Below the pieces are notes generated by a model. The model was not told the origin of the DNA. It was given only the letters and a program-made list of their open reading frames with translations, and did no database searches. Source: Mobula hypostoma (lineage: Eukaryota). Taken from it: DNA of 64,000 nucleotides. Position 1 is the first letter of the stretch, and every line of letters begins with the position of its first letter. Shown piece by piece: positions 5,803 through 54,400 of the stretch. Made by a program: the position numbers and the translations under genes. The DNA lies in the NCBI RefSeq assembly GCF_963921235.1, contig NC_086097.1, positions 99,388,001 through 99,452,000 on the forward strand, in the 5' to 3' direction.

Positions 5803-5946
5803 ACAACACACACAAGATAACTCAGAAGGTCAGGCAGCATCTATGAAGGGAAATGAACAGTTGCCGTTAACAGCATCCTGGCCTGCTAAGTTCCTCCAGC
5901 AGTTTGTGTGTGTTGTTCAAGATTTCCAGCATCTGCAGAATCTCTT
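5803..5946. mobile_element. Short palindromic Penelope-like terminal-repeat remnant
   Basis: Same motif as the arms of the 38766-39270 element (caacacacac...ggtcaggcagcatctatg; gcctgct..gttcctccagca..ttgtgtgtgttg). Confidence 0.6.
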
Positions 5947-6454: not shown

Positions 6455-9400
6455 CTGCAATAATACAGTGACATAATTAATAAAAGATACAGGCAAAGGA
6501 TGTAGTATAGAAAGGCTGGGGAGACATGGTGAGATGGGTAGTTCAGAGAATTAGATGCTCAGCTGGATGAGGAATCAGAGGTTTGCAGTGGCTGGTTGGG
6601 TAGTGGAAAGTGATGGGTGTGGAGTGGACTCTTAACTATTGTTGGTCAGAAAGAACGAAAGTTTACAAATCAGTGAATTCAAATGAATCAAGGGCAGTGA
6701 AATCAGACAGACTAATTGGCTTTGTTCTTGCTGCATGCTTGGCGATGGAGGCTGCCATTTTGTGAAGACAATCCATTCTCCATTTTGTGAGCTTGACATG
6801 CTTGGCTTGATCAATGTTTTAAAGAAGACACAATGAGTCTTCAGGTAATCTGCTGGACTGGAGATCATTCCCAAATAAGAAGTTATTTGTTAGGTGTTCT
6901 TTGGTTGGATGTAATATTCAGGTTTGTGAATGTTGGGATTGGTGCCTTCCTGGGGTGATTCAAGCTTGTTGCTGATTGAGAACGAAGAGCCATAAATTAT
7001 CGACTGTTACTTGATGGGAAGAGGGCAATAAATGGATGCTGGCCTGGAGCAGAGCCAATAACAAGGTGTTAAAGGACAGACACATGACCTGCAGCCAATG
7101 ACACTGGAATGCGATATTTGAATTGATAAGGGATGGATATAAAAGTGGATGCTTCGTGTGTGCTGGCAGCGGTAACTTCGAAAAATAACCATCACAGATA
7201 CAAGCATGAGCTACCCTGCGTGAAACACGTGGCGAATGAATTGGGACAACGAGGAACGCCTGGCCAGCGTAGACTCCTTTGTCCAGGTAATACCTTTGCT
7301 ATTCTTTGACTGTTCAGGAGAGTCAGGGATACTTAGCAGGTGTGTACACAAGGTATTTAGTGTATGAGTTCACGTACTTGTTAGTGTAAACAATAAAGGT
7401 ACTTATCAGTAAATACAGATCTCTCTGTGCCTCACTAATCATTGCTGTAAGAGGTAATTTTTACAACACTATGGATTGGAATAGTTGGTGGAGGTGTTGG
7501 CAGTGATTAGGGAATGATTTTATGGTGTGGGCTGGTCCGTTGAGGGTGGGACCAGTTTGTTGGAGAGTGGTGCCGTTGCTATGAGGAGACTAGAGCAATT
7601 TGTTGTAGAATGGGATCTGTTAATGGAATGGTATTTTTGATTGAGGTCTAGAGGTGTTAGGGCATCTGTTAACCATATAACCATATAACAATTACAGCAC
7701 GGAAACAGTCCATCTCAGCCCTTCTAGTCCGTGCTGAACTCTTACTCTCACGTTAATGTGTAGAGAGATTGATTCTACAATAGGCTGAACATACAGATGG
7801 ACTTTTATTATTGACTCTGAGTGCTTGGAACAAACTACAGTCCCGCACATAAAGAAAAAACAAAATGCTGGAACCATTTAATAGTTCAGGCAGCAGCTAT
7901 GGAATCGTTCATCAGAAAGGGAGATAAATTAGGTAAGGAATAGCCCCGAGTTTCCAGTTTCCTTCCAACTCCCACTCTGACCTCTGTCTGTGACTTCCTG
8001 AATTGTTACATCGAGATCCAGTGTAAACCTGAGGAACAATAGATCATCTTCCATCTGGACACGTTGTAGCTGTATGGACTTCACTGAATCCACTCCCTTT
8101 GTGGACCATACCCTTTCTATGTCAGAACTGGGTATTTCTGCCGCTCAGATTTTCTATCTCCATTAGGACAGCCTCACAAGTCTCACAATTCTGCTATTAA
8201 GAGCATGTAACAGGCAAGTCTCACAGTTCTATTAGGAACACATGACAGATAAATCATCATACATGCCCAAGTTATAGGGAAAGGCTGAATTAGTTAGGCC
8301 TTTATTCTCTGAAGCATAGGAGAATGAGGGGAGATTTGATGGAGGGACATATACAAAATTATGAGGAGTATAGATAGAGTAAATGCAAGCAGACTTTTTC
8401 CACTGAAGTTGGGTGAGACGATTACCAAAAGTCATCCAGTAAGTTACGGGTGAAAGGTGAAATCTTCAAGAGGAAAATGAGGGGGATCTTTTTCACTCAG
8501 AGGGTGGTGGGAGTGTGAAATGAGCTGCAAGTGGAAGTGGTGGGTGTGGGTTAGATATTAGCATTGAAGGGAAGTTTGGATAACGACAAAGATGGGAGGA
8601 GTGTGGAGGGCTATGGTCCAGGTGCAAACTGATAGAACCAGGTTCGGCATGGAGTAGATGGGCTGAAGGACCCATTTCTGTGTTGTAGTGCTCTATGTCT
8701 CTATTATCTGTTTTGACCAGGTCTCACTTGTCACAGGTATCCCTTTGTACTATTAATTCCTCTTGCCACCTCTTTAAATTAAGATTACCTTTATTATCTC
8801 TCCCATTTTCGACAATGTCTTTGACCTGTAACATTGACCGTTTCTCATTCCATAGACACTGCCTGATCTGCCAAGTGTTTCCAGCATTTCCACCCTCCAG
8901 CATCTACACTTTTATTTCTAATTCTGCCACACACCTGCTTGAATTCTTTCACCGACACTTGAATGTGGTGCTCAGCGATCTCTTTCTTGCGCCTGTGAAC
9001 AGGGAGCACAGTTGAATATCCACGAGTACAGAACAAATTAATTCCATGCTGCACTGCTTTCCCTCATAACCTGTGCAAGGGAACCAAAACCCCAGGGTGG
9101 CAACTGCTCAGAGTTCCAACCTCTCCTTCCAACAGGCACTTTCCCACTGAAATTGGCATATATACACCTGAGCTCAATGTTAGAGGGTAAAAGTGTGCCC
9201 TTACACGCATAAACCCAAGGTGTGAACATTGTATCTGGGTGATTATAGCAGGGGCTTGGTTGGGGGTGGGAGAACAGTGCCCCATAGTCATAAACCCAAG
9301 GTGTGAACGTTGTATCTGGGTGATTATAGCAGGGGCTTGGTTGGGGGTGGGAGAACAGTGCCCCATAGTCATAAACCCAAGGTGTGAACATTGTATCTGG

Positions 9401-33400: not shown

Positions 33401-36400
33401 CATTTAACCTGAAAACTGTTTATGTGGTCATATCACTTCACTGTTTGTGGGATATTGCAACGAGCAACTTGACACTTCCTACATTATCACTATGTCAAAT
33501 ATTCTTCTGGGACTTAAAACATTCTGGATTAACCAGAGATTGTCACTACTTCTATACCTCTCACAGCTTCTTCCTACCCACATCTTCAGTAAGCTAAACC
33601 ACAGCACAGGTCCACAACTGTAAGCCCTAAAATCTGGCATTCTTCCAGTTTGTCAATTGTAGAGAGGCACTCAAATGTAAATTGAAAGTAAATTGGATTA
33701 GACATTGGCTTTGTGGGCAATGGTTGCCTCTCTGACTAGAAGCCTGTGGCTAGTAGAGTGCCACAAAGATTAGTGCTGCGTCCATTGTCAGTGATCTGGA
33801 TGATAATGTGGTTAACTGGATCTGCAAATTTGTAGGTGACACCAAGATCAGGGGTGTAGTAGACAGCGAGGAAAACCATCAAAACGGGATCTTGACCAGC
33901 TGGAAAAATGGGCTGAAAAATGGTAGATGGACTTTAATGTAGACAAGCGTGAGATGTTGCACTTCGGTAGGACCGACCAGGGTAGGTCTTACACAGTGAA
34001 TGGCTGGGCACTGAGGAGTGTGGTAGAACAAATACAGGTCCACAGTTCATTGAAAGTAGATAAGTAGATGAGCACAGGTAGATAAGTTCATAAAGAGAGC
34101 TTTTGGCTCATTGACCTGCATAAATCAAAGTAATGAATACAGGAGATGGAATGTTATGTTGAAGTTGTATAAGACATTGGTGAGGCGTAATTTGGAGTAT
34201 TCTGTGCAGTTTTGGTTACCTACCTACAGGAAAGATGTAAATAAGTTTGAAAGAGTATGGAGAAAATTTACAAAGATATTGCTGGGACTGGAGGACCTGA
34301 GTTATAAGGAAAGATTGGTAGGTTAGCACTTCATTCCTTGGAATACAGAAGATTGAGAGGAGATTTGCTGGAGGTATACACCATTACGAGTGGTATAGAT
34401 AGGGTAAATGCAAGCAGGCTTCTTCCACTGAGGCTGTGTGGGACTACAAACAGAGGTCATGGGTTAAGGATAAATTTGTAAATTTTTGAGAGGAACACGT
34501 GGGGAAACCTCTTCACTCGGAGGTAGTGAGAGTGTGGAATGGCTGTCAGCGCAAGTGGTACATGTGAGCTCAATTTCAGCATTTAAGAGAAGTTTGGGTC
34601 GGTACACGGATGGTAGGGGTTTGGAGGGTAATGGTCCTGGTGCAGGTTGATGGGAGTGGGCAAGGTAAATGGTTTGGCACGGACTAGATGGGCCACAGGG
34701 TCTGGTTCTGTGCCGTAACTTTCTATGACTAAATTCTTTCATCCCCTGTGAACCGAACCTTATGTTCTCTTGTCATTTATATCAAATTGTAATACTTTGA
34801 AAAGGAATGATTTACTGCATGCTTCATTGGTGTCCGTTGTTCCACTGTCACTCTCCTGCATTTGCGCTTCATCTTCTGTGACATCCTGCAAGCAATGCAC
34901 AAGAGAGATCTTTCAGTGCCTACCAAAATATCCATCAATCAATGTCAGCCTCCCAAATGTGTGGTGGAGAGTGGCTGCATTACGGTCGTTATGGGAACAC
35001 CAATGCCTGCGAGTGGAAAATCCTACCAAAGGTAGTAGATTTGTCCCAGTACATCACGGGTAAAACCCTCCCAACCATTGAGCACATCTACATGAAATGT
35101 TGCTGTAGAAAAGCAGCATCCAGCATCAGAGATCCCCACCACCCGGGCCTTTTCTCACTGCTGCCATCAGGTAGAAGGTACAAGAGCCTCCGGACTCACA
35201 CCACCAGGTTCAAGAACAGGTACTACCCTTCAACCATCAGGGTCTTGAACAAAAGGGGATAACTACACTCATTTAAGGACTCTTATCTTGTTATTTCATG
35301 CTCATTATTTATCCCTATTTCTTTATTATCTGCGTTTGCAGGGTTTGTTTACAATTTACTGTTCCTGATGTTTACGGCTTATGGATCCTGTTTACAGTTA
35401 CTGTTCTATAGATTTACTAAGTATGCCCACAGAAAAAGAATCTCAGCGTTGTATGTGGTGGCATGTGTGTACTCTGATAATAAATTTTACTTTGAACTTT
35501 GAAATTTAAGGAGGCTTTTTCTTTAGAAAATGAAGTGGACGTAATGGCATCTTTTATCACCTGTACATCATAATAATGATTGAAATGAAGTATCACAGCA
35601 ATATTCTCACACTTGCAGATATCCAGCCCAAAGCAATACACTCAATCCCATGTACACCCAAACTCTAAAACCAACACACACAATCTCACGTACATCTCTG
35701 CTCTCCTGCCAATTACCTTTCCAGAAACTGCTGATGAATCCACCTCCGACTGTATGCTCAGCCTGCGGATGAAGTTTATTGGGTCAGCCAATGCCTTTGT
35801 TAAATCTGCCAAGAGAAACAGTGGTGATAGTTCTAATCCACGATTGTGCAGAAAGGAGCAAGTGTGTGAAAAGTTCTGCCCCTTCCAGAAGATAGTATCC
35901 CTTACCCAACAATCTACTCACCATCTTATTTCCATTCAAGTGTACAAGGACCCAAAAGGTCTCAAGAGCATCTACAGACATTTGTTGGATACAGTGTGAA
36001 GTTCCCTTTATGCTGACTATCAAACACAATTGGTACAAGTTCAAAATAGGTTTGACACAAAATAGAGGTCCCTCCATAACACCCCATTGAGCAAAAAAAA
36101 CAGCATGCAGAACTCAGAATAAAACTTCCTTTTCTCTGCCCTATCAAAAATACCTGGTAAGATCTAGTAAGGTAATGGTTGATCTGATCTTGGCCAGTTT
36201 TCCTGTCTTAACATATTTATCTGTAGTCCAAAACTCTATCTCAACTTTCAATAAATATATTTAATGACAGGACATACTGCACACAACTTTCTGGTAGAGA
36301 TTCCAAACCGTCACAGCCATCACAGGGAAGAAATTCCTCAGCTCCTTCTTAAAATGGATGCCCCTAGTTCTGGATTCCCTTACAGAGGGAAGCATCTTCT

Positions 36401-39400
36401 CACTGCCTTTCCTGTCCATCGCTATGAAATTTGATATATCACCAAAGAAGATAGCAAATTTCTACAGATCTGCCATGGAGAGCATTCTAATCGGTTGTAT
36501 CACCGTAAGGTATGGAGGGGCCACTGCAGAAGATCGGAAAAAGCTGTAGGAAGTTGCAGACTCGACCAGCTCCATCATGGGCACTAGCATCCCCAGCATG
36601 GAGGACATCTTCAAAAGGCGATGCCTCGAAAGGCAGTGTCCATCATTAAGTGTTCCCATCACACAGGATGCACCCTCTTCTCGTTGCTACCGTTAGCGAG
36701 GAGCTACGGGAGCCTGAAGACACACACCTGAGTGTTTTAGGAACATTTTCTTCCCCTTCCCCATCAGATTTCTGAATGGACAATAAATCCATCAACATAT
36801 TTTTCCCTCTCTTTTTGCACTACTCATTTAATTGAATTTATATACATATATTTCTTACTGTCATTTATGGAGTTTTATGTATTGCAATGTACTGTTACTG
36901 TAAAACAACAAATTTCACAGCATATGCCAGTGATACCAAACCTAATTTTGACGCCGATTCTGATTCTGTTGTCATGAAACAATGGTTTTCATCAGCTCTC
37001 GCATGCGCACTTCCACATCACCTTAATTCATAAATATTAGGAGTAAGTAGTAGAATTTGTTTCAGCTTTTAAATATAAAGCTTCACCACTGCCCCCATAT
37101 CTCCAAAGTTTGTTTAATAATGGACACTTCATCAATGGATTCTGATTCTGCCAAGACCCATCCCAAGACTATCATCTGGGTTTCAATAAGATCACCTCTC
37201 ATTCTTCTAAACTCTGATGTATTTGGTCCAACCAACATAACCTTTCCTTAATAAGGGGAGGGAACGTCGACTCAGACCATGAGAGACCTGCATCGGGCAT
37301 ATTCACGCCTTACAAGGCGCAGATTGGAAGTCTATGTGGGGCACCACTCCTCGCACAGACTAGAGCAATGTGTGATTAAGTGCCTTGCTCAAGGGCACAA
37401 ACACGCTGCCACAGCTGAGGCTCGAACTTGCGACCTTGAGGTAACTAGACGAACGCCTTGACCACTTGGCCACGTGCCCAACACAAATAAAGCATAAAGC
37501 ATGCTTTCCTTAATAAAGCATCCCCTTAATCCTGAGAATCAACCCAATAAATCCTCTCTGATATGTTGCCAAGGTATCTGTAATTATCTTTAAATAAGGA
37601 AATTAAAGCAGCATGCAAATGTCCAGATGTGGTCTCAGTACAGTTGTGGCACGACTTCCTCACATTTACACTTCATTTTCTTTGGACTATAATCAACATT
37701 CCGTTGGCCTCCCTTTCTGATTTGTCATACCTGCATACTAACTTTGCGTCAAGTGCAAGAACAATCAAATGCTTCTAGATGCCAGAATTCTATAGAATCT
37801 ATACATTCAAACAACATTCTGCTTATCCATTCTTCCAGGAAAATATTTCCACACAGTATACTTTGAGATACCTTTGTCCACTCAAATATCTGTAATCTTT
37901 ATGTTCTCTTCACAACTCTCTTTTCCAGGATTATAATGAGAGCAGATAAAGGTTTCCCATTCACCTGTCATTAATAAGACTTATAAATCACTGAGAGCCC
38001 TGCACTGATCCCTTTGTAAACTCATCACTTACAGCTGAAAAATACCATTTATACTGCCTCTGTTTTATGTTGCTAAGTGATCCCCTATCAATGTTAAAAT
38101 ACAGTATCACTTCCAACACCATATATTGCAATAATCTATATGTGTCACCTTATTGAACTGCTTTGGAAATCTAAATGGACTTCATTAACCCTTCTTGTCA
38201 TATTCTTAAACGCACCTTAAAGTTTGATTCAAAGTAAAGTTTCCTCCATAATGCCCCATCAAGAACTCCAACAAGCAGAGACGCAGCACAATTTATATAT
38301 GGATTAAGGCCTCCTCTATATTCTCCCATCAAACACTCCTACAGCAGTATCTCACATCCTTGGTCAAGTTCCCTCCATACTGGCACATCAAGCACTTCAC
38401 AGCAGGCCTATTATATTAAATATTGGATAATGTTCCCTTCTACCTCTTCAAACACTCCCAGTGAGCAATCATAGCTGTTTGACATGGAGTTAAAACTGTA
38501 TCAGTAGCCTTTAGCACCCAAGCTGGGCACAGCCAAGTTTAATACAGAGTGAGTCTCCGCTAAACTATCACGGACTGGTGCAGGAGTAAATACTTTCCTT
38601 ACCCAACCCAGAGACATCTGGAGATTATTGCAGCCAGCCACTAACACAGAGTCAGAATTGACATCCATAGTGAGAAAGGTCCTCCCAGCCTGATTTGAAG
38701 TCTCTCATTCATTCCCTGTGGGCTGAAGTTGCTGCTTGACTGTATAACCACTGAATGTGAAACCACAAACACGAGGAAATCTGCAGTTGCTGGAATTTCA
38801 AGCAACACACATAAGTTGCTGGTGAACGCAGCAGGCTAGGAAGCATCTCTAGGAAGAGGTACAGTCGATGTTTTGGGCCGAGACCCTTCGTCAGGACTAT
38901 CTGAAAGAAGAGATAGTAAGAGATTTGAAAGTGGGAGGGGGAGGGATGGAGCCAAGAGCTGGACAGTTGATTGGCAAAGGGGATATGGGAGGATCATGGG
39001 ATCCCCTTTTCTTTCTCCCTATGCCTCCTGTCCCATGATCCTCTCATATCCCTTTTGCCAATCAACTGTCCAGCTCTTGGCTCCATTCCTCCCCCTCCTG
39101 TCTTCTCCTATCATTTCGGATCTCCCCCTCCCCCTCCCACTTTCCAATCTCTTACTAGCTCTTCTTTCAGTTAGTCCTGACAAAGGGTCTCGGCCCGAAA
39201 CGTCGACTGTACCTCTTCCTATAGATGCTGCCTGGCCTGCTGTGTTCACCAGCAATTTTTATGTGTGTTGAATGTGAAACCAGTTCCCTGAGCACTTCCA
39301 TCCATTTCCTTACCTCGGGCAGGTATAGTTCAGCTACCCAACCTGAGCCTGACTCCATCCGCTGATACATGCGTGCATGTTCCACCAAGATACTCGTGTC

Positions 39401-42400
39401 ATGTAACACTGGTTCAGTGTTCACGTTATCCAGATCAGATTAAGTCTTGTTGATGGCTAACAATTGTGTTGGCAGGATGCAGTGAAAGTGCTTGACCTGG
39501 CTGGAAGGCTGATGTTTGGGTGTCAAGTTTGAGCCCATAGGGAAGTGAAAGCAAACATTGCACAATGCTTTACTGGGAGCCGGCTTCATGTTTGCCTTAG
39601 TTGTGTAGTCAGACAATCACTTCTGCTGATAGCCCATGGATGAAGAACCACAACCCGGGCTGCAAGTACATTTATCTGGCAAGGGTTTCAATGCCTCCAG
39701 CTCAGGTAAGGCGATACGAAGACAAGGCCAGGTTTATACCAGAGCAGATTTTAAGGGCACGTGTGGCTGAATATGGAGCTTACTCTACACCTGTTGCAAT
39801 AACATTAAGAAAGTGTGGAACTACAGTAGATGTGAGCTTGCAATGCGATGATCCACCTCACCTGCCCAGGTGTGAGGCACATAGTCCTTCACTTCAATAT
39901 AAGCAAATAGCGTTGCCATGGGGAGCAGATGGTTAGTCTCATTCCGCAGGCCAATATGATGATATCCTGTGGAGAGAAGGGCACCCCTTTTAGGTACATT
40001 ACCTAGCAGAAGGTTCAGCATGACCAAGGGAGAGGGTATTAGGAGAAGATAAATAATGTGGGAAAGGAAAGGAAATGTGAAATAAAATCAGAAAACACTT
40101 CTGTGAAGGAAGAAAAGGAGTTAACATTTCAGGTCAGTGACCTTTCAATTCTAACTTCAAACATTTCTTCACAGGTGCTGTGTAACTTGATGACTATTTC
40201 CATCGGTTCGTGCATTATATATTGTTCACATAAACCATGATGGAGTTGCATAGTAGTATCTGTGAAATGGAGTTCAGGCGTGTCACTGGGAATCTGAGTC
40301 ATTTTTATTACATTGAATGTGAACATTGCTGGCAATGTCAGAATTTATTTTCCATCCTTAATTGCCCCTGAACTAGGAAGGCAGTCAAGAGTCAACCATG
40401 TTGGTGGGATCTGGATCACAAAGTCCCACAGCTGCCTTATGGATATCTCCCACTCTGCTTCCTGTATGGACTCCAATTTATTTTCCCAGCTTCTCTTTCA
40501 AATCTGCTCTCATAATGAAATCATCCGCTCCTGGACCCACCTATACCTACCAGGTTGCTCCACCCTTTCCCTCCACCTTTTTATATTAACTATCTCCCCT
40601 ACGTTCTTTTTGGTCCAGATTAATGGTCTCAACGCAAAGCACTGACTGTCCATTTCATTCCTTAGATACTGCCTGATCCATGGAGTTCCTTAGTACTTTG
40701 GGTGTTGGCTCCAGTTTCCATCTGCAGTCTCTGTGCCTCTATATACCTTTACATAAATCTGGGTGCATGTAGTTGTGGCTGTGTGACATGTGAAAATGTG
40801 GAGAATGTTCATAAATAATAAATAGTAGATCAGTCTGTATAATGATGGGAAGCATCTATGCTTTAAGTACCTGTTTGGACAGCAGTAACTGATAGAATCC
40901 TCTGTCCAATGAACTTCCCACTTTCTTCATACGTGGCAATTCTTACAAAAGCCAATTCTGGCACAAGGATCTGCAAGTCAGGAAGTTTCTTATTAGACAG
41001 TAGCTAAAGAGTAATTCCCAAACAGGCAGCTAAATCAACTCAGAGACCGTATTGATGGAGTTGGGCAGTGAACCAGCAGAGTGAGAGGTCTGAACTTATA
41101 GAGGGTGGCCAGATTGTCCTCGACCAGCCCACTGCCCATTTTAGCCACTGCTTTCACCATGCCAGCCCAGACTGAGGTCTTCCTGATGGGGAGACTTGAG
41201 CAAGCTGGCCCTCCATCTTGAATCGGGATCTCACAATGTCCCAAGTCCCAAGTTCCCAGTTTCTCTGGACACACAGTAAATGAGATAGAGACCCAATCAG
41301 CCCAGCTCACACTGAGATGGGGTTCTGGGATCACACCCAAAGACCCAGGGCTAAAAAGCTCATGAAGAACTTCATGGAATTCTACAGCATAGAAGAATGC
41401 CCTATGGCCCACCGAGTTCATGCCAAACAGTAATCACCCACATACAGTAATTCTTTATTCTCCTGTCACTTCCATCAACTCCCACAGATCCTACCAGCCA
41501 CCTACAGATACAGGGGGCAATTAACCAACTGACCTGTAGACCTTTGCAATGCTGGAGAAAACCAGAGCACTCAATGAAGGTGGACAAGAAGTTGGGATTA
41601 AACTGGGTCTTTGAGACAGCATTTTTACTAGCTGCACCAGTCTGCTTTCTCTAGCGTAGTGAATCCGTGGACAAAAAGAATGGGCTGGTAAACAGAACAG
41701 CAACAAACAGGAAGGCTGAGGTCAAATGAGCCTTCTCAGATGGGTCTGGGGTCCAAAACGCTGGTTCACATGGTGCTTAGGTACAGGGGCACTGGGGCTG
41801 TTGTCTGAAATACTGGGATCTGGTGAGTCTGTATCCTGGGAGCCTGTCTCACATGGTGAGTTTGACCCGGAGTGTACACAGGGCATTGTGTCTACTTAGA
41901 AACCGGCTGACATAGTGGCTGGGGTTCAATCAAGGATCTCAACACGTACGGTGCTTAAACTAGGTCACCAAGGTCCTGGCATCTTGTGAACCTAGCTAAT
42001 ACTGGCACTGGGGCCTAATGAACAGGCTCAAATACCAATAAAAGTGGGGATCTCATGATTCTGCAGAACAAGGTGACTGACATCTATTAATCGCAGCTCA
42101 CGTGGGGACTTGGGTCTACTATATTTACTCATATCCACATTGAAATTCAGTAGGTCAGTAGGTACATCTAATGTCAGAGAAATGTATACATTATACATAC
42201 TGAAATTGATGACTAGTGAATCGGTCTTCCTTGAGGCCTAGGCTTAGGGTCCTATGAACATGTTTACATGGGTCCCGGGACAAATGAGGGCCTGGCTCCA
42301 ATGAGCAAGATGATCTCAGGGAGGGTGTCTGATGAGCCATGTTCACAATGGCACTGAAACACTGAGCTGGGAGAACACTGGAATCCATTACTAAAGAGAT

Positions 42401-45400
42401 TCCAGGGCATTTGGAAAATTGTAACATGTTCAAGAGTTGATATAGCATTATGAAAGAGAAAATGTGTTTTTCTTTCACAATACTACATCAACTCTTGCAT
42501 GTACCTCAAGGATGTGTGCTTAGCCCACTGCTCTACTCTCTTTACGCCCATGACTATATGACTAGGCATGGCTCAAATACCATCTATAAATTTGCTGATG
42601 ATACAACCATTGTTGGCAGAATCTCAGATGGTGATGAGAGGGCGTACAGGAGCGAGATATACCAGCTAGTTGAGTGGTGTCACAGCAACAACCTTGCACT
42701 CAGTGTCAGTAGGACAAAAGAGCTGATTGTGGGCTTCAGGAAGGGTAAGACGAGGGAACACACACCAGTCCTCACAGGGGAATCAGAAGTGGAGAGAGTG
42801 AGCAGTTTCAAGTTCCTGGGTGTCAAAATCTCTGAGGATCTAACCTGGTCCTAACGTATCGATGCAGCCATAAAGAAGGCAAGAAAGTGGCTATATTTCA
42901 TTAGGAGTTTGAAGAGATTTGATTCATTATCTAAAACAATCAAAAAGTTAATAGATGTGCCATGGAGAACATTCTGACAGGCTGACTATGGGATGGGGAT
43001 GGGAACTACTTCACAGGACTGTTTTTATTTTCTTTCTATACTATGTATTGCATTGAACTGCTGCTGCTAAGATAACAAATTTCACAATACGTGCCGGTGA
43101 TAATCAACCTGACTCGGAGTCTGATTCTGTTTGGTTATCTGGAAGTCAAGTTTATTGGCATATGCCCAAGTAGGTGCAATGAAAAGCTTACTTGCAACAA
43201 CGTCACAGCCATATAGCATCATGTAAGCAGCATTCACAAGAAAAAAAACAAAGTAATTATAACTTACATTCAACTTTTACAAGAAAACAAATACGTTGAT
43301 TTTTGTGCAAGGTGGTCAAAGTGGTCCTTGAGGGGGGATAAAATGAGAACCATTATATTTGGATTCCCAGAAGCCATTCCACAAGGTGCCACATCAAAGG
43401 TCACTGCACAAGGATCTTTTTGTTTTTGAGATGGATGTAGTTAGTGTGGTTCATAAACAGAAAACAGAATTAGATGAGAAAATACTGTGGTGCCACAGGG
43501 ATCACTACTCAGGCCTCAACTATTTCTAATCTCTAGTAGTGACCTAGATGAAGGGCAAACTGTAGGCACATTTGCTAAGGACACAAAATCAGGTGGGAGA
43601 GCAAATTGGGAAAAGGCCACAAAGAATCTCCAGAGGGATTGCAGAGATTAACGGAGTAGGAAAGAAGTTGGCAGGTAGATTATGATGTGGGAAAGGGTGA
43701 GATTAAGACTTCGGAATTAAGAATGAAAAGAACAATTTCAGTGGAGTGTGAGTACAAACATTGTGGTGTGAGGGGATCAGAGCGTTCTAATAAAAGTTGA
43801 GCTTACTTTCATATGCTTAAGTACATCGACAGGTGCAATGAAAAATGTACTTGCAGCAGGCACATAAGCAGTATTCACAAGAAAAACATGAATTATATGC
43901 AATGTTTACAATAGAACCCAATTAGAACAATAATTGCATGAAGAACAAAATTAGTATGTAGGGTACAGCAGGCAGTTAGGAAGGAAAATGAAATATTGGC
44001 TCTTATTGCAAGGAGTATATACAGTATGTAAGAGAGATTTAATACAACATGGCACCATATGCAGAAAGGTTGAGCAGATTGGGCTTATATCATTGGAGTT
44101 TAGAAGAATGTAAGATGACTTTATTGAAACAAAGTTTTAAGGGGAATTGACGAGGCTGGGTGCTGAGGGTATGTTTTCTCTTGCAGGTGTATCTAGAACA
44201 AGGAGACTTAATTTCAGAGGAAAGTATGGCTCATTTAAGATGAAGATAAAGAAAAATTCTTCTCCGAGGATCATAACACTTCAGAGTCATTGATTAGATC
44301 AAGAGGCATTGAATCTCGAGGGAGCAGAGTTACGGGAGAGAGTAGAAAGTAGTGTTGAGGCTATGTGTGGATTAGCTATAACCTTGTCAACTGGCAGGCC
44401 AAGCACAGGAGGACGAGTGGGGCTTCATCCAACTCACGTTCCAGCAAGAGGACTGGGGTCCAAGCAAGGCAATATAGACTACCATTCACCTGTCTAATGA
44501 GCTGGCTCACCTGGAAAGAGAGCAAGGCTTTAATAGTTGTCTCTGAGGCAACATCCTCCCAAAAATAGCTCAGAGAGTTTTGTCTTATGTCTGGTTATTG
44601 TGGGGACTGGTGTCTGATGAGTCTGTTAGCATGGGGATGGGGTGAAGTTAGTCTCATACATCCAGTGAGCCCAGCTTACATGGCAATTGGATCTGGAATC
44701 TCCTAACAAGTTCATATGGACAGCCGGGCTTAACGATCCTGGCTAGGATGAAGGCTGCATATACTGTAATGAGCTTGTACTTCTTGGAGGCTGGGGTCCC
44801 ATATGTCTGGCTCATGTGTAAGTGAAGCTGGAGAATTAATCATTAATGGGACTAGGCTGTATCTGCAGGAGGGGACACCATGTTTGTGTTGTCGATACAC
44901 CGTCTTCAACACTGTACCTTTTCAAAAAGGAAGGGTTCCTTGTCCCTCCACTGAGGGTTGATGGAATTTTGCTCAAGGGACAATTTTGTTCTGAACTTCT
45001 GCTTAGGATCATTGGGGAGTCCAAATAATTCCACTTCAACATAGAATCTTGAGTTGCGATCTGACAGAAACTGCCCAGATATAATCTGCAATAGGAAATA
45101 CCAGGAGTTAAAGATCACAGTACATGATCTGTTCTATTCAAAACTACCTTAAAGGCAAGGTACACTGTGGGTGGTAGCAGTAATTCAGTGTTGCCTAGTG
45201 ATGAAAGAGGACTAGGAGCACAGAGGATTTATCTTAAGGCTGCATGGTCTTCTGGTGGTCATTCAGCTTCTTATGCAGTCATGAGGTTGACAGCCAGGCA
45301 GGTCAATGCCTGGGATGAAGCTGCAAGGATAAACTCGCAGTACCGGAAAGACCACAAGACCAAAAAAAGGGAACAGAATTAGGCTATTTGGTCCATCGAG

Positions 45401-48400
45401 CCTTCTCCACCATCTCAGCTTCCCTCTCAACCCCGTTCTTCTGCCTTCTCCCTGTAACCTTTGAAACCCTTCTTATCAAGAACTTATTAACTGACTTGGC
45501 TTCCACAGCCGCCTGTGGCGTTGAATTCACAGATTCACCACTCTCTGGCTAAAGAAATTCTTCCTCATCTTCATTCTAAAACAACATTCCTCTTTTCTGA
45601 GCCTATGACCTCTGAACCTAGACTCCTCACATCCATTCTATCTAGGCCTTTCAACATTTGATAAGTCACAACGAGATCGCCCTCATTCTTCTAAATTCCA
45701 ACGGGTTAAGGCCCAGAGCCATCAATCTTTTCTATTCTAGTCCTCTCAAAATGAATGCTAACATTGCATTTGCCTTCCTCACCACCGACTCAACCTGCAC
45801 AAGGACTCTCAGGTCCTTTTGCACCTTGGATTTTGTTTAGTTTTCTCCCCACTTAGAAAATAGTCTATGCTTTTAGTCCCAAAGTGCATGACTCTACACT
45901 TCCCGACACTGTATTCCATTTTCCACGTCTTTGCCCCCTTTCCTAATCTGTCTAAGTCCTTCCACAGCCTCCCTGTGCTCAAAGATGATGTACTGTATGT
46001 ATTCTCTAATACCGTTATCCAGCAGCTGCATTATTAACTTCAATATTGATATCCTCATCACTTACCTATCAACAACTCTATCAATTAGGGCAAATATCCA
46101 ATGTCTACTTAGTTCACCTCAAGTTTTTAGCATCATACCCATATTCAAAGCATGCACACCCTCCCAGTTATTCAACATTGAGAGGCACGTGGAATCATCA
46201 AAATCCACAAAACATGCAAATTTATTGTGTCTGTACCAGCAGGAAAGACTTATTCAGCCTAATTCTTCCTTCTAGCTCTTGGCTATTAACTTACTTTGTA
46301 GCTTGAATACTTCTTTGCTTATTGTCTTGTTTATTGTTTATTATTTATGGTAATGCCTGCACTGTTTTGTGCACTTTATGCAGACCTGGATAGGTCTGTA
46401 GTCTAGTGTAGTTTTTGTGTTGTTTTATGTAGTTTAGTGTATTGTCTCATGTAGCACCATGGTCCTGAAAAACGTTGTCTCATTTTACTGTGTACTGTAC
46501 CAACAGTTATGGTCGAAATGACAATAAAAAGTGACTTGACTTGACTTGATCTGCAGTAGCCACTGCAAATCTAAATGGAGCATCATAATTTCAGTACCAT
46601 TGATGTCCTAATTGTTATTAAACAGAATCCAATAATCTGCACGTGATGAGATGCTGGACACAATTCCCTGCATCCACAGCAGGGGACAAAGACAGCACCT
46701 GTCTCTAAAACGTTTCAGGGTCTTGCCTCTCAATTCTGTTTCCATTGTCCTGATAAGCCTTCAGGAATACCACATTTCCTGTTTCTATTTCAGGTTTCCA
46801 AGATGGCATTTTGTTTTATTTTCTTCAAGATGCCTGTGTTCCACCGGTTCCATTTTCCCCTTGAACTCCAGTATCCACAACCCATCCAGCAACACCCCTT
46901 CCCCCATCCAAAATAAAATCTGTTTCACTACTACTTTTCTGATCTTTAAGACATTTGTGAACACACATCTTTTAGTTACCCTAACATCACCTTTGTTAGA
47001 GGCTTAGGAGCATAATATATTTATAGACAAGACCAAGTTCAGAGTATTCAGGGCAAAGTGCCAGATAGAACAAACATTAACAGCTGGGATAGGGATATAG
47101 TTTGCAGACAACTAAATAGGAACGGACAAATTGAAGCCTTTGCATCTTTACTACAAGAGCTGAAGGACACAATCACAAACAATTGCTCCATGAAGAAAGA
47201 GACTCCACATTCATTAATCAGCCAAGCACTGGTTGACTTGATAATCCAAATTATGACATTACTAGATACATTAAAACAGCAGCAAGCCCACTGAACCTAC
47301 TCTGCAATTCTATCCCAATACCATGTTGTGCCTTTTGTGCCTAAAACTCTATCTTTTTCTTAAATGTGTTCAGCTTCATGGCCACTACAGACTTCTTTGG
47401 TAAGGCAGTCCCTGAGGAAAATGTTTATCCTCCGGGAAAAGCCAAACTACTGGAGGAGCACAGCAGGTCAAGCAGCATCTGTGATGGTAAAGGGATAGTT
47501 GATGATTTGGATTGAGACCCTAACCTCTTCTTCAAGGAGGTTTCTCTTCACCTCAGTGCTCAATGTCTTAACCCATACTCTGACAACAACAAGGAAAGTA
47601 TTTAAAATAAATCGTGCTTGCAGAAGGGACCCTTGTTTACTTGTGGGATGTTGATGAAATCATTAACTCTTGAAGTTGAATAAAATCCAAACTTTACCAA
47701 AATGGACAATGAGCTTGGTGCAACAACATCTATCTGATCAGCAGTGAAAGGATCAAACTTCTTATCCTGACAACGCAGCAGCTTATGCTTCAGAATATAG
47801 CCACACCGCCCGTTGAACTCAAAGCATGAATTGTTCAGCTGCATGGGGATATCTAAAAGAAAGAAAGGAGAGAAAATTATCAATGATAAATCAGAAAATA
47901 GTCCCTGGGGTTAGCTAGTCAACCTGAAGAACATAATTAGTTTTAGAACTATAGGGTCGATAACTAGTCCCCAGGATTCTGTGTCAGAGATCACAGTCCA
48001 GGGTGTAGGTTCAGCATCATAAGGTGAGTAACAAAGGCCCAAAATCACAATCAGGATGCTCAGTCAGTTTCTGAGATCTTCAGATCACAATCAACAGATA
48101 CTGAGACAGCATTAAAGTTATCAGGATTGGGATTCATGTACCAGCTCTTTTGTGAAATGCTGACCTGAGAAAAGCTGGAAATCTGGAGTAACACAGTATC
48201 CCAATGAAGGGTCTTGACCCAAAACATTATCTCTCCCTCCATTCCCCTCCACAGATGCAGACTGACCTGCTGTGTTCCTCCAGCATTCTGTGTCACTTCA
48301 AAAATAATAACCATCTTCAAAATACTCAATGCAAAAGGGAGCCCTTCTTCAAACATTATTCTAGAAACTGTATTCCACTTGTTTTGTTAATTTAAGACAC

Positions 48401-51400
48401 AAAAGACTACAAAGTGCAAATTTGAGTTAATTGAAACTTTTGTTATCCAAACCAGTTTATCACACAGTGGTCCTTTCCTCATTTTTGAGTGGTCATTTCA
48501 GTGATCTTTTATACCAACATATTGGATTCAGAGCCAACTTGCTCACGGAAGGCAGAGGGTGGTTGTAGATGGAGCCTATTCTGCCAGGAGGTCGGTAACC
48601 AATGGTGTTCCACAGGGATCAGTTCTGGGACCCTTGCTCTTTGCAATTTTTATAAATGACTTGCATGAGGAAGTGGAAGGGTGGGTTAGTAAGTTTGCAG
48701 GTGACACGAGGTGGGTGGATTTGGGGATAGTGAAAAAAGTTATTGCATAATACAATGAGACATTGACAGGATGCAGAGCTGGGCTGAGAAGTGGCAGATA
48801 GAGTTCAGTCTGGAAAAGTGAAGTGATTCTTTTTTTGAAGGTTCAATTTGAAGGCAGAATACAGGGCTAATGGCGGGATTGTTAGCAGTGTGGAGAAACA
48901 AGAGGGATCTTTGGGGTCCTCGTCCATAGATCTCTCAAAGTTGCATCTCAAGTTGGTAGGGTTGTTATGAAGGAGTATGGTGTGTTAGTCTTCATCAGTC
49001 AAGGGAATGAATTCAAGAGCCGTGAGGAAATGTTGCAGCTCTATAAAACCCTGGTTAGAGCACACTTGGAATATTATGTTCATTTCTGGTCACCTCATGT
49101 GGAAACTTTAGAGAGGGTGCAGAGGAGATTTACCAGGATGCAAGTCTTATGAGAATAGGTTGAACAAGCTAGGACCTTTCTCGAGGGAGGATGAGTGGTG
49201 ATTTGATGAGTGAGGTGTACAAGATGATAAGAGGACTTCATTCACCAAGTGGACAGCCAGAAACTTTTTCCCAGAGTGGATACGAGCGGACGTAATTTAA
49301 AGGTGATTAGAGAGAAGTATGGGAGGGTGTGCGGATGTCAGAGGTGGGTGTTTTTTACACTGAGAGTTGTGGGTACATGCAGTGCACTGCCAGGGTACTG
49401 GTAAAGGAAGAGACATTAGGGACATTGAAGAAACCCTTAGGTGGGTACATGGATAATAAAAAAATGAAGGGCTATATAGGAGGGAAGGGATAGAATGATC
49501 TTAGAGTAGGTTAAAAGGTCAACACAATATCATGAGCCAAAAGGCCTTTGCTGTGCTGTAATCTTCTGTGGTCTATATTGCTAACTCTATTTAATCCATT
49601 GCCTACTTCTCTCTGAAAGTCTTCAAGTTAACCCATTATGCCTTTTACAATCTCTGGTGGCATACTTAACTCTCTTGTGATCATTATCCTATATTAATCT
49701 CATTGCTTCTCTAGTTGATCTTTATCTTCATTGATCTGATTAATTTGCTCCTTAATCTACTTCATTCATAGTTTAAATTTGATTATTACTCTTACTGCCC
49801 TATAGGCGTCTCAGTTCCAATCTCCATTACCTTTTGTCTGTACTTTCATCAGTCTCCATACTTCCCTTCCTAAATCTCTTCACTATTCCCTCCTCCTTTA
49901 AAGAACGTTATAGAACATACCAATCTAGACAAACTTTTTGCCATATGCTCCAATTTATGGTTCAATGTCAGAGATTTTATCAAATAAAAAATGATGAGTT
50001 TTACCCTGTTAAGCATGTGACATAAATCTTGCCCTCAACTCTATGATTACTCTTTTATTGACCTGGTTTCAACAACACTCAGGAAGCTCAGCACCATACA
50101 GGACATAGCAACCTGTCTGATAGGCACCCCATCTACAACCATTCACTCAGTGCACCACTGCCGCACAGTAGCACAATCTGTACCATCTACACAACTCAAC
50201 CAAGATCCCTTCGGGAGCACCCTCCAAACCCACCTACCAGCTAGACAGACAAGGGCAATGAAAGGAGGGATACACCAGCCTTTGCAAGTCATCCTCAAGC
50301 CACGCACCATGCTGACTTGGAAATTGTCTCTGTTCCTTTTACATCATTGGGATCCTATAAAATCCTATAACTCCCTCCCTGTCAGCATTGTGGATATACC
50401 CACATCACGAGGTCTGAGTGGTTCTAGAAGGCAGCTCACCACCACCAGAGCCAGTTAGGGAGGAGAAGCTAAATGTTGGCTCAGCCTGAGAAACCCACAG
50501 TCCCTGAGTGAATGTGAAAGCAAAAGGCACAATGAGCCCTGAATCCCGTCTCTGCTCTGCCACTCACCTGCCGTCTGAAAGTTGAGAGCAACCATCTGAC
50601 AGCCAGTGTTCCAGAAGACATTAGGTAGGTAGTTTGAGGAATCCATTCTCGACCCTTTGGGGTAAATGCGACTCATTTGTCTCTTGTTGTATCTGTGTGA
50701 GTGTATAGGAACTGAGAAACCTTTGAGATATTAGCCAGTCCCTCTCAAGATGGGAGGATGGCACGCGAACCATAGAAACATAGAAACATAGAAACATAGA
50801 AAATAGGTGCAGGAGTAGGCCATTCGGCCCTTCGAGCCTGCACCGCCATTTATTATGATCATGGCTGATCATCCAACTCAGAACCCAGCCTTCCCTCCAT
50901 ACCCCCTGACCCCTGTAGCCACAAGGGCCATATCTAACTTCCTTTTAAACATAGCTAATGAACTGGCCTCAACAGTTTGCTGTGGCAGAGAATTCCACAG
51001 ATTCACCACTCTCTGTGTGAAGAAGTTTTTCCTAACCTCGGTCCTAAAAGGCTTCCCCTCTATCCTCAAACTGTGACCCCTCGTTCTAGACCTCCCCAAC
51101 ATCGGGAACAATCTTCCTGCATCTAGCCTGTCCAATCCCTTTAGGATCTTATACGTTTCAATCAGATCCCCCCTCAATCTTCTAAATTCCAACGAGTACA
51201 AGCCCAGTTCATCCAGTCTTTCTTCATATGAAAGACCTGCCATCCCAGGAATCAATCTGGTGAACCTTCTTTGTACTCCCTCTATGGCAAAGATGTCTTT
51301 CCTCAGATTAGGGGACCAAAACTGCACACAATACTCCAGGTGTGGTCTCACCAAGGCCTTGTACAACTGCAGTAGTACCTCCCTGCTCCTGTACTCGAAT

Positions 51401-54400
51401 CCTCTCGCTATAAATGCCAGCATACCGTTCGCCTTTTTCACCGCCTGCTGTACCTGCATGCCCACTTTCAATGACTGGTGTATAATGACACCCAGGTCTC
51501 GTTGCACCTCCCCTTTTCCTAATCGGCCACCATTCAGATAATAATCTGTTTTCCTATTTTTGCCACCAAAGTGGATAACTTCACATTTATCCACATTAAA
51601 TTGCATCTGCCATGAGTTTGCCCACTCACCCAACCTATCCAAGTCACCCTGCATCCTCTTAGCATCCTCCTCACTGCTAACACTGCCACCCAGCTTCGTG
51701 TCATCCGCAAACTTGGAGATGCTGCATTTAATTCCCTCATCCAAGTCATTAATATATATTGTAAACAACTGGGGTCCCAGCACTGAGCCTTGCGGTACCC
51801 CACTAGTCACCGCCTGCCATTCTGAAAAGGTCCCATTTATTCCCACTCTTTGCTTCCTGTCTGCTAACCAATTCTCCACCCACACCAATACCTTACCCCC
51901 AATACCGTGTGCTTTAAGTTTGCACACTAATCTCCTATGTGGGACCTTGTCAAAAGCCTTTTGAAAATCCAAATATGTAACAAATTCTACAGACTCATGA
52001 AGATTAGGTCAGAGGGAAGAGGTGGAATCGGATACGACAGCAAGTTGGAGAGACGTTTAGATAGGTCCATGAATATGCAGGGACGAAGGGATATGGATCA
52101 TGTGCAGGCAGACAAGTTCAGTTTAATTTGGCGCCATGCTTGATGCAGAATCTTAAGCTGAAGGGCTTGTTCCTGTGTTGTACAGTACTATGTTAGGAAG
52201 AAGACAAGAGGCTTGTTCTGAGAAACAGACCAGTTCTAAACAAAGGGCGTAATGAGCAGGGGAATTTGGAGCCAGTTTTCACCATTCTCTAATTGGAGAG
52301 ATTCAGTCTTCAAAATGAGCTAAAACGGGGTGAGGATGAGTGGTAAAGGTGGGTGGGCGGACGAGAGGGAGGGGAATAGTCAGGGTAGGCACAGCAAGGT
52401 AACAGGAGCTGTCAGAGGAGAGTGAGGAGGGGTGGGACAACAGGAAATAAGTAGGGAGGAGGAGGAGGGAGAACATGGACAGAGGAGGAGGGGTTGAAAG
52501 AGCAGGAAGGATCAGGAAAGGGAGAGGGTGTAAAGGCAAAATTAGCTTGAAAATCTGACTTAACTTTGGACCAGGGCACTGGGATTCTGAGTAGCAGGTG
52601 GAGGGAAAACAGACAGTTAAAATATTATTTTGCCTCACTGATTACCAGGAGTCCTTTCAGAGAGATGTGATACCATAAAATGAGATTAAAAATAACATAA
52701 TACCACCGTAAACTAAAGCAAAAAGAAATAGTAAATTAACTCATCAACTCAAAGAGGATAGACCCCAGTGCAGACAGATCACACCTTCACAGTTTACAGA
52801 ATCTAGAAGAGATGGCAGAAGAACTATTTCATCAATTTAGTGATGTTATTTAAAAACAGATGACATGCCAGGGAATGTTAGATGATACTGCAAATGTATC
52901 AGAATGAAGAGAGGAAGCCAGTGCAGGAAGCTTTAAAGCATCAGCTTTGATTTGGTGGTAAGAGAAACAATAACCACTTAAGGAGGAGAATAGAAAATAA
53001 ATCTGGAACCAAAAACATAATGGGTAGTCAGCACGAATTACAAAATGAAATCTTGCTTAAATGTAGCTCAACAAATGACTTGAAGTAATCTGGTGTAGTA
53101 GCATCTGCACTGGACGTCAAGGTGAGTGGTCCCCAGTTCAGATCTGGCCAGTTGCTTACATGCGTTCCATCCGCGCTGGGTGAAAATCAAGCTAGCAACT
53201 CAGTCTTGTAAAAAAACAGACAAAAATGCTAAGGAAGCGCCCAATGTACCACAAGATGCGGGAATGAAAAAATGAGGTAATGTGAAAGATGTAGTTTCTC
53301 CAGACACAATAGCTAAAGAATAACAGAGCATAGGGTCAGCAGTAAGGAACAGAAGGGGTCATCACCAGTAAGGCTGAAGACAGGAAGGTGAAAGTTGCAG
53401 TAAAGCATGGCTATTGAGTGGCAGAGTGTGGAGAATGGGTCTCCAGCAAAGATCAAGTCGGAGTCAGGTCTGCAGCTGTTCACGTGTGTTGAAGGCTTAA
53501 ATCTTGCAATTAAAAAAAGGGTTCAATTTACAAATTATTGGGAAAATGGGTGTTACTGAAGAGGACTACAGTACATTGATAAGCTTGCTGAATGAGCTCA
53601 GTATTAACAGGTAAATGTCAACATAAATCATGGAGTTACAGAGGCACAGATCACACATGCCCTTCAGCCCATTATGCCCTGCTGTCATTCAAGTATTCAT
53701 CCACACTCATCTTATTTATCACTGCCTTGGTCAGTAGCCTTCTATGCCCTGGTGACTCAAGTGTGCATGAGATACCGATGGGTGGTCAGAATGGTGCATC
53801 TAAAAGGCTTGGAGCAGCAAAATGATTGGACTGTAGAGAAGCAAATAAAAATAGTGAAACAAGTGACAAGGACATAAATATCAAATGTAATTCCAAAGTT
53901 TATTTCCAAAGGAATAAAGCTGAAAAGTGAAAGAAAAGTTGCAATGATCTTTGGATTGAACCTTGGAGAATGGCAGACTGCTCGGTCTCCATAACAATAG
54001 AAAGGAAGAGAGATGATAGGGGAGATGTGAAAATACATTTTCAAGACAGATCCAGAGATCTTTTTCAGGAAGGATTGTACAAGCTGGGTCAATATTTTTG
54101 GAAGAGAAAAGGCTTAGACATTACCAAAATAGAAGGTGAATAGAATTCTGATGGGTTTTTGCTGGAACACCTGAGGGGGAAGGGTGAGCAAACCTGTAAA
54201 CCATCCATGTAAACAAGTCATCAAGAAATCAAACAAGGACATCTTTATCCAGAGACTCGTTATTATGGATTGAGGAAGAAACAATAGGTGTTCTTAAGGA
54301 AGGGCTCCACAGGCAATTGAGGAAGAAAAAATTAGAAGACAATACAAATAAGATTAGAAAAGACAGGAGGTGCTTGTTCCATTACATATTCTATTTTGTA

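What the first reader, a model, noticed from the sequence alone, without database searches (positions are those of the whole stretch)
38752..39282. TSD-flanked fold-back Penelope-like element with a hammerhead ribozyme motif in each arm
Seen: ~200-bp inverted arms, a 12-14-bp TSD, and a 36-nt motif in each arm whose consensus is AGTC-CTGACGA-A-GGG-TCTCGG-CCC-GAAAC-GTC|GACT. That is the hammerhead core CUGANGA/GAAA with a GUC cleavage triplet and a palindromic ACGT helix III. Each arm has a different CpG-type core mutation (plus arm CTGACAA; minus arm AAAAC-ATC), so only the consensus is intact. Known: Penelope-like elements carry minimal type I hammerheads thought to act as dimers, and often insert with an inverted terminal repeat. 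Inference: the ancestral insertion placed a self-cleaving motif in both orientations in a PLCB2 intron, and the pre-mRNA can still fold into a long hairpin (possible ADAR/Dicer substrate). Decayed relatives occur at about 5803, 7861/8820, 40610, 47449 and 48198.
Basis: partly seen in the sequence, partly recalled or inferred. Interest (0 to 1): 0.7.

Follow-up and report, generated by a model that had tools for sequence, protein, structure and literature searches.

The report
Twin-primed Penelope hairpin, dead ribozymes
This mirror-image piece of DNA in a phospholipase gene's intron is an ordinary decayed insertion of two back-to-back ends of a very common Penelope jumping gene, whose two ribozyme copies are mutated and predicted to be inactive, but the family's rule of a short tail on exactly one arm suggests each such insertion was likely written by two separate copying starts, one from each cut DNA strand.

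Summary
38752-39282 is a head-to-head pair of 3' ends of a Neptune-type Penelope-like retrotransposon, bounded by a 14-bp duplication, in an intron of a PLCB2-like gene (minus strand). Two related organisms hold the empty site with one copy of the duplication. The intact 36-nt hammerhead motif has 4,891 exact copies in this genome and lies downstream of RT/GIY-YIG reading frames. Here both copies carry core mutations, only one is in the pre-mRNA's sense, and it is predicted to be locked in the long hairpin, so host RNA cleavage is unlikely; editing was not testable. The layout (inverted copy, one-sided tail, duplication, hammerhead) is published. What the family adds: 69 of 69 duplication-bounded pairs have the ~37-nt tail on exactly one arm, whichever arm is longer. 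That argues against a fixed-order fold-back copy and for two priming events from a ~13-nt staggered break. Arm ends pile up at the ribozyme's 5' edge, not at its cut site. This scan noted the same class many times before, on other DNA and elsewhere in this genome.

The parts
38752..38765 (+). Target-site duplication, left copy (14 bp)
   Evidence: single copy at the empty site in two related organisms
38766..39001 (-). Left arm: 5'-truncated 3' end of the Penelope-like element, 236 bp, tailed, lacking a 39-bp internal segment
38766..38802 (-). ~37-nt tail, present on this arm only
38863..38898 (-). Minimal type I hammerhead motif, left arm; G12 (38874) and G16.2 (38869) changed to A; the only copy in the host pre-mRNA's sense
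38998..39005 (.). Head-to-head junction (blunt, at 39001/39002, inside an 8-bp palindrome)
   Evidence: sequence
39002..39268 (+). Right arm: 5'-truncated 3' end of the element, untailed, reaching ~29 nt further 5' than the left arm
39173..39208 (+). Minimal type I hammerhead motif, right arm; G8 (39182) changed to A; antisense to the host gene
39269..39282 (+). Target-site duplication, right copy; first 2 bases also match the element's continuation
35806..39861 (-). Host intron (GT..AG, 4,056 nt) of a PLCB2-like gene; the element starts 579 nt after the donor site
   Evidence: exon borders read by eye; gene identity; not confirmed by spliced RNA

Best explanation
The feature is a single, lineage-specific insertion of two 5'-truncated 3' ends of a high-copy Neptune-type Penelope-like retrotransposon, joined head to head between a 14-bp duplication; it was likely made by twin target-primed reverse transcription, and its two hammerhead copies are mutated and predicted to be inactive. 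Shown: element identity, empty site in relatives, one-sided tail, core mutations. Inferred steps: (1) the GIY-YIG endonuclease nicks both strands about 12-14 nt apart, leaving 3' overhangs; (2) each 3' end primes its own cDNA on element RNA, helped by 1-2 nt of pairing, one at the tail end and the other about 37 nt further 5', as expected of an asymmetric protein dimer; (3) both cDNAs stop early, independently, and are joined at their 3' ends; fill-in gives the duplication. The two templates are mostly of one source lineage (one RNA, or two RNAs of one master). The hammerhead rides along as part of the pseudo-LTR and then decays neutrally, mostly at CpG. The host pre-mRNA would fold into a ~200-bp hairpin with no shown function.
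For: Empty site: contigs of two related organisms join 38751 directly to 39269 (X11 record 204|205, X12 record 702|703). Family: 4,891 exact intact motifs, reversed control 0; arms run upstream into RT and GIY-YIG frames. One-tail rule: 83 abutting head-to-head pairs in 213 loci, 80 with exactly one tail; 69 of 69 among those with a duplication of 9 bp or more; cross-locus control for the duplication finder 0 of 300. The tailed arm reaches further 5' in 30 of 80, the untailed in 40, and 10 are level within 2 nt; arm lengths do not differ (23 vs 19 of 42, Wilcoxon p 0.79). Mean 1.57 nt of target-element overlap at 35 of 51 untailed ends without extra bases, against 0.35 by chance. Arms of one insertion differ at 34 of 359 linked diagnostic sites (9.5%) against 27% between loci. 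In vitro, an anole Penelope protein cuts and extends both strands, starts at two internal sites that bracket the tail, and is predicted to be a dimer (PMC11167929). Hammerhead helices have probability 0.00 in the folded pre-mRNA.
Against: No biochemical test was run on this family; twin priming is read from end products only. PMC11167929 saw no difference in start site between strands, so it does not itself explain why exactly one arm is tailed. Three of 83 pairs break the rule (L070, L084 two tails; L234 none; none has a duplication). One RNA or two is unresolved: 34 swaps exceed the 9 simulated for one template, but a threefold hypermutable-site model (27 swaps) is not rejected. Pfam matches of the frames are below the curated cut-offs (RVT_1 E 8e-5, GIY-YIG E 0.069). 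Ten level junctions and this locus's palindromic junction are also what fold-back priming could leave.
Confidence: 0.75

Rival explanations
1. Fold-back self-priming: one cDNA (or an antisense RNA) folds on itself and the second arm is copied from the first, as proposed for rotifer Penelope elements.
For: PMC3846280 argues for self-priming from palindromes at inverted junctions. Arms are far more alike than random copies (9.5% vs 27%) and share 6 rare variants in 42 pairs against 1.4 between loci. The junction here is an 8-bp palindrome; 10 of 80 pairs are level.
Against: A copy must lie inside the first arm, and a tail cannot be copied from an untailed arm: the untailed arm reaches further in 40 of 80 pairs and the tailed one in 30. 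Three of 39 pairs switch linked haplotype between arms. The 39-bp deletion is on one arm only in the 4 pairs scored on both arms (of 11 examined) and here.
Confidence: 0.1
2. Both ends are primed, but the tail asymmetry arises afterwards, when the endonuclease resolves the intermediate and trims one arm, not from two start sites.
For: PMC8557442 attributes the tail to endonuclease-mediated resolution. Untailed ends scatter more (ref 2035-2079) than tailed ends (mostly 2107-2113).
Against: In vitro start sites match both genomic end classes (PMC11167929). The excess target-element overlap at untailed ends fits priming there.
Confidence: 0.1
3. A co-opted regulatory element: the ribozyme or the hairpin controls PLCB2 RNA by cleavage, editing or small-RNA production.
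For: Very stable predicted hairpin, 579 nt from a splice donor.
Against: Absent from two relatives whose flanks differ by about 6%; each arm 12-13 changes from the family majority, with both cores hit; the sense motif is sequestered; thousands of like insertions exist.
Confidence: 0.04
4. A MITE-like DNA transposon or a fold-back unit that moves as a whole.
For: Inverted ends with a duplication.
Against: Junctions and arm lengths differ at every locus; the ends are unequal; duplications vary from 9 to 19 bp; arms run into a retroelement frame.
Confidence: 0.01

Closest known systems
Endonuclease-positive Penelope-like elements with an inverted 5'-truncated copy, one-sided 30-40-bp tail and short duplication (PMC8557442; PMC3846280)
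   Same: Head-to-head inverted pseudo-LTRs, tail on one end, duplication, hammerhead near the 3' end, RT plus C-terminal GIY-YIG with a CX4CX2C linker (Neptune/Nematis type).
   Different: This copy holds no coding sequence. The papers call the tail optional or frequent; here it is on exactly one arm in 69 of 69 duplication-bounded pairs.
Minimal type I hammerheads of metazoan Penelope elements (PMC4209133)
   Same: CUGANGA and GAAA core, bulged base before helix II, 4-bp helix I, palindromic ACGU in place of helix III; that paper also notes pairs on opposite strands 100-700 bp apart.
   Different: Helix II is short here (3-4 bp, against 7-8 in Schistosoma); both local copies are mutated; cleavage untested.
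PAc, Poseidon element of Anolis (PMC11167929)
   Same: Two end classes a tail-length apart; start sites internal to the RNA (some tailed ends here carry further element bases).
   Different: Different clade; PAc showed no strand difference in start site in vitro, whereas these insertions pair one start of each kind.
L1 twin priming (recalled, not read)
   Same: Both target ends prime cDNA and the two cDNAs are joined, giving an inversion with a duplication.
   Different: L1's second primer anneals far inside the RNA so nothing is duplicated; here both starts lie 37 nt apart and the 3' end is written twice.
Non-LTR retrozymes (bioRxiv 10.64898/2026.07.22.740005)
   Same: Short non-coding Penelope derivatives with type I hammerheads.
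   Different: Retrozymes are direct tandem repeats with same-strand ribozymes; this is an inverted pair.

Membership tests
EN+ Penelope-like element | RT followed by C-terminal GIY-YIG endonuclease in one frame, upstream of this 3' end | tested here: met
   Family copies L086, L102, L014; Pfam matches weak, below cut-off; the window's copy itself has no frame
EN+ Penelope-like element | [quoted passage not shown] | tested here: met
   VIYCVRCSRCGLLYIG and two later histidines, read by eye; feature from PMC8557442
EN+ Penelope-like element | Inverted 5'-truncated copy, 30-40-bp tail at one end, short duplication | tested here: met
Neptune/Nematis clade | CX2-5CxxC motif in the RT-EN linker | tested here: met
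   CKRNKCYTC; definition
Neptune/Nematis clade | Placement in an RT tree with reference elements | not tested
   no reference proteins fetched
Minimal type I hammerhead (family motif) | C3-U4-G5-A6-N7-G8-A9 and G12-A13-A14-A15.1 core with NUH triplet | tested here: met
   4,891 exact copies; 57 of 80 arms that are not exact matches still keep the core
Minimal type I hammerhead (this locus) | Intact core in each arm | tested here: not met
   G8 changed in the right arm; G12 and G16.2 changed in the left arm
Minimal type I hammerhead (family motif) | Helices I and II, supported by covariation | tested here: inconclusive
   Predicted in the isolated 36-mer (helix I 0.66-0.91, helix II 1.0) but helix I falls to 0.03 in a 160-nt context; only a one-sided C/U change in helix II (38 of 80), no double change seen; no Rfam hammerhead match
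Minimal type I hammerhead (family motif) | Self-cleavage after GUC, as a dimer or with protein help | not testable with these tools
   Indirect test negative: arm ends not enriched at the cut site, 2 of 25 against 2.8 expected
Non-LTR retrozyme | Direct tandem units each with a same-strand hammerhead | tested here: not met
   the two motifs are on opposite strands
MITE / DNA transposon | Matching terminal inverted repeats, fixed duplication length, unit copied whole | tested here: not met
   unequal ends, 9-19-bp duplications, locus-specific junctions

The most novel reading that the evidence does not exclude
Penelope-like elements integrate by obligatory asymmetric twin priming: a protein dimer makes a ~13-nt staggered break and starts one cDNA at each of two fixed RNA sites 37 nt apart, so every clean inverted insertion carries exactly one tail. 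The tens of thousands of hairpins in this genome are a natural record of that step, with many arms running off an RNA start at the ribozyme's 5' edge.
Probability: 0.6. Interest if true: 0.6.

Novelty: new member of a known kind. Interest (0 to 1): 0.3.

Why it matters
The locus itself is ordinary: one dead copy among many thousands. The family-level rule matters more. How Penelope-like elements make their inverted repeats and tail is stated as open in PMC8557442 and PMC11167929, and the published self-priming idea (PMC3846280) predicts a fixed order of arms that these counts contradict. The rule gives a sharp prediction for the existing in vitro system: one product from each start site per target molecule. 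The mass of intronic hairpins may also be a large double-stranded RNA load in these genomes, which is untested.

Tried and rejected
Rfam: 0 matches at gathering score over the window; no hammerhead family even at E 10 on an intact copy, so Rfam is blind to this minimal form. Two random RNA templates: rejected, arms are much more alike than random copies. 39-bp deletion as a subfamily mark: rejected; 1 of 94 unbiased arms, 11 carriers on 11 different haplotypes, between short direct repeats, so likely recurrent slippage. In vivo cleavage footprint: no pile-up of arm ends at the cut site. Cap-templated G before the motif's first base: 40 G to 60 A among the 100 listed of 1,376 matches, counted by eye, about what base composition gives. 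A 3' splice-site reading of the 5'-end pile-up was considered; no common upstream exon sequence was seen by eye. Expression and editing: no RNA holder listed; contigs of four guessed-RNA runs of other organisms fit the repeat only and did not bridge the intron. Co-folding two intact motifs gave an extended duplex, uninformative on the active dimer. No earlier scan note matched by sequence or place.

Full report
Observation. The stretch 38752-39282 is as described. A 14-bp exact repeat bounds it, and two inverted segments of 141 and 68 nt are 91% and 96% complementary. It folds at -393.9 kcal/mol, z -31 against 100 shuffles. The left arm (38766-39001, minus sense) has a ~37-nt 3' extension that the right arm (39002-39268, plus sense) lacks, and lacks 39 bp that the right arm has. 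Both arms point their 3' ends outward and meet at a blunt junction. Over 197 aligned sites they differ at 14, 4 at CpG; both carry the same minor alleles at two family-variable sites.

It is one insertion. Contigs of four related organisms were laid on the region. In two, a single contig joins 38751 directly to 39269, leaving one copy of the repeat; in the other two the contig pieces start at 39269 but do not bridge. The flanks differ from the window by about 6% (68 of about 1,117 and 64 of 1,045 letters). So the 517 bp and one repeat copy were added in this lineage.

Host. PI-PLC-Y matches window 50563-50697 on the minus strand, PI-PLC-X lies about 35 kb beyond the window on the same strand, and the exon at 44915-45100 best matches human PLC-beta-2 (E 1.6e-20; beta-3 5.6e-14). 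By eye, exons end at 39862 and resume at 35805 with GT..AG borders, which puts the element 579 nt into a 4,056-nt intron. Spliced RNA did not confirm this. The 3.48-Gb genome is probably a cartilaginous fish; that is a recalled likeness, from no call.

Family. The intact 36-nt motif occurs 4,891 times exactly, control 0. A pattern for arms that break off or diverge just upstream of it has 35,274 matches. Long copies run upstream into frames with RT motifs, a CX4CX2C linker and a GIY-CxxC-YIG endonuclease; Pfam sees RVT_1 and GIY-YIG only below cut-off. By the features in PMC8557442 this is an endonuclease-positive Penelope-like element of Neptune/Nematis type; no tree was built.

Ribozyme. The family motif fits the minimal type I hammerhead of PMC4209133: 4-bp helix I, core, bulged base, helix II, palindromic ACGU. 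Of 171 arms spanning it, 80 are not exact matches and 57 of these keep the core; changes sit mostly at CpG. At this locus the right arm has lost G8 and the left arm G12 and G16.2; these positions are needed for catalysis (G8: PMC11167929; G12: established knowledge). Only the left copy is in the pre-mRNA's sense. The antisense arm is transcribed first, and helix I and II have probability 0.00 in the whole element, in 1,470 nt of pre-mRNA, and in a transcript cut 9 nt after the motif. A minimal hammerhead also needs a second sense copy. Cleavage of the host RNA is therefore unlikely now and was unlikely at insertion.

How it was made. I scored 213 loci: 97 anchored on the intact motif (the 100 listed of 4,891 hits, merged), 87 on short arms (from the 100 listed of 35,274; 3 listed places not fetched, neighbours merged) and 29 best hits of the left arm. 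They hold 83 abutting head-to-head pairs; 80 have the tail on exactly one arm, and all 69 with a duplication of 9 bp or more do. The three exceptions (L070, L084, L234) have no duplication. An earlier pass kept 41 of 60 candidate rows by duplication and coverage and found 41 of 41, duplications 9-19 bp with mode 13, cross-locus control 0 of 300. Independent choice of start would give about half. The tailed arm reaches further 5' in 30 pairs, the untailed in 40, 10 are level, and lengths do not differ. A fold-back copy must lie within the first arm and cannot gain a tail, so a fixed-order fold-back does not fit. The geometry is what two primings from a break with ~13-nt 3' overhangs would give: the top-strand end writes the left arm, the bottom-strand end the right arm. 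Untailed ends show 1.57 nt of overlap with the target against 0.35 by chance (35 of 51 ends scored). PMC11167929 shows both-strand cutting and extension, two internal start sites that bracket the tail, and a predicted dimer for an anole element, but no strand difference. The asymmetry is my inference.

One template or two. Arms of a pair differ at 34 of 359 linked diagnostic sites (9.5%), against 27% between loci and about 9 expected swaps for one template; 3 of 39 pairs switch linked haplotype. A threefold hypermutable-site model is not rejected. Shared rare variants: 6 in 42 pairs against a mean of 1.4 between loci, none A-to-G. Mostly one source lineage, sometimes perhaps two RNAs.

Where arms stop. 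Among 41 main-family arm ends in the 52 nt spanning the motif, 16 fall in the 8 nt at its 5' edge (p 2e-4 against uniform) and 2 of the other 25 near the cut site, 2.8 expected. An RNA start there is plausible (the bases fit an initiator consensus, recalled), a reading I took from earlier scan notes; my test for a cap-derived G was negative. This locus's own arms stop about 140-170 nt further upstream.

Comparison and novelty. The inverted copy, one-sided tail, duplication and hammerhead are all in print (PMC8557442, PMC3846280, PMC4209133). [quoted passage not shown] No supplements were read; those of PMC4209133 and PMC11167929 may bear on this family. What I saw: PMC4209133 and PMC11167929, parts 1-2 of 4; PMC8557442, passages and section 15; PMC3846280, passages; bioRxiv 10.64898/2026.07.22.740005, part 1 of 5 and passages; PMC7151607, abstract. 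The scan's own index lists 469 notes with these words in at least 42 genomes, several reaching the same twin-priming reading, one 3.6 Mb away in this genome; I had reached it before looking, and they are not independent support.

Verdict. A real, correctly described, ordinary dead insertion of a known class; interest 0.3, carried by the family-level tail rule and not by this locus.

Noticed in passing
L066, L149, L153, L158, L166, L170, L173, L175, L214, L220 and others: An older sister subfamily has C at hammerhead core position 6 (15 of 26 arms loosely classed as sister; 1 of 172 main-family arms); 202 exact matches genome-wide, some on the main background. A natural A6C variant that favours Mn2+ is described in PMC7151607 (abstract only). 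An amplified retroelement lineage with A6C would be worth a cleavage assay.
   Followed up: partly
family 3' end; window 39168-39178 (+) equivalent: 5' ends of short arms pile up in the 8 nt at the start of helix I (16 of 41); about 1,376 exact copies begin there with non-family bases upstream. Possible RNA start; cap-G test negative.
   Followed up: partly
window 5804-5945: Small older fold-back of the same superfamily (minus arm 5804-5868, plus arm 5877-5945) that stops short of the ribozyme core.
   Followed up: partly
window 7860-8889 and 47443-48293: Two further head-to-head pairs of decayed family ends, about 930 and 690 bp apart; possibly older twin insertions.
   Followed up: no
window 50878-52008 (-): 376-aa open frame of a CR1/L2-type LINE 3' end (label recalled) just upstream of the PLC-Y exon; many shorter fragments of the same kind lie in the introns.
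   Followed up: no
L070:6280-6734: Complex insertion: one minus arm followed by three short plus-strand units in tandem, bounded by a 15-bp duplication; suggests repeated template jumps.
   Followed up: no
L084:4311-6634: Long head-to-head pair with tails on both arms and no duplication found, the clearest exception to the one-tail rule.
   Followed up: partly
L094, L097, L136, L138 tailed ends: Some tailed ends carry 8-16 further shared bases beyond the usual end, showing that the RNA template continues past the tail.
   Followed up: no
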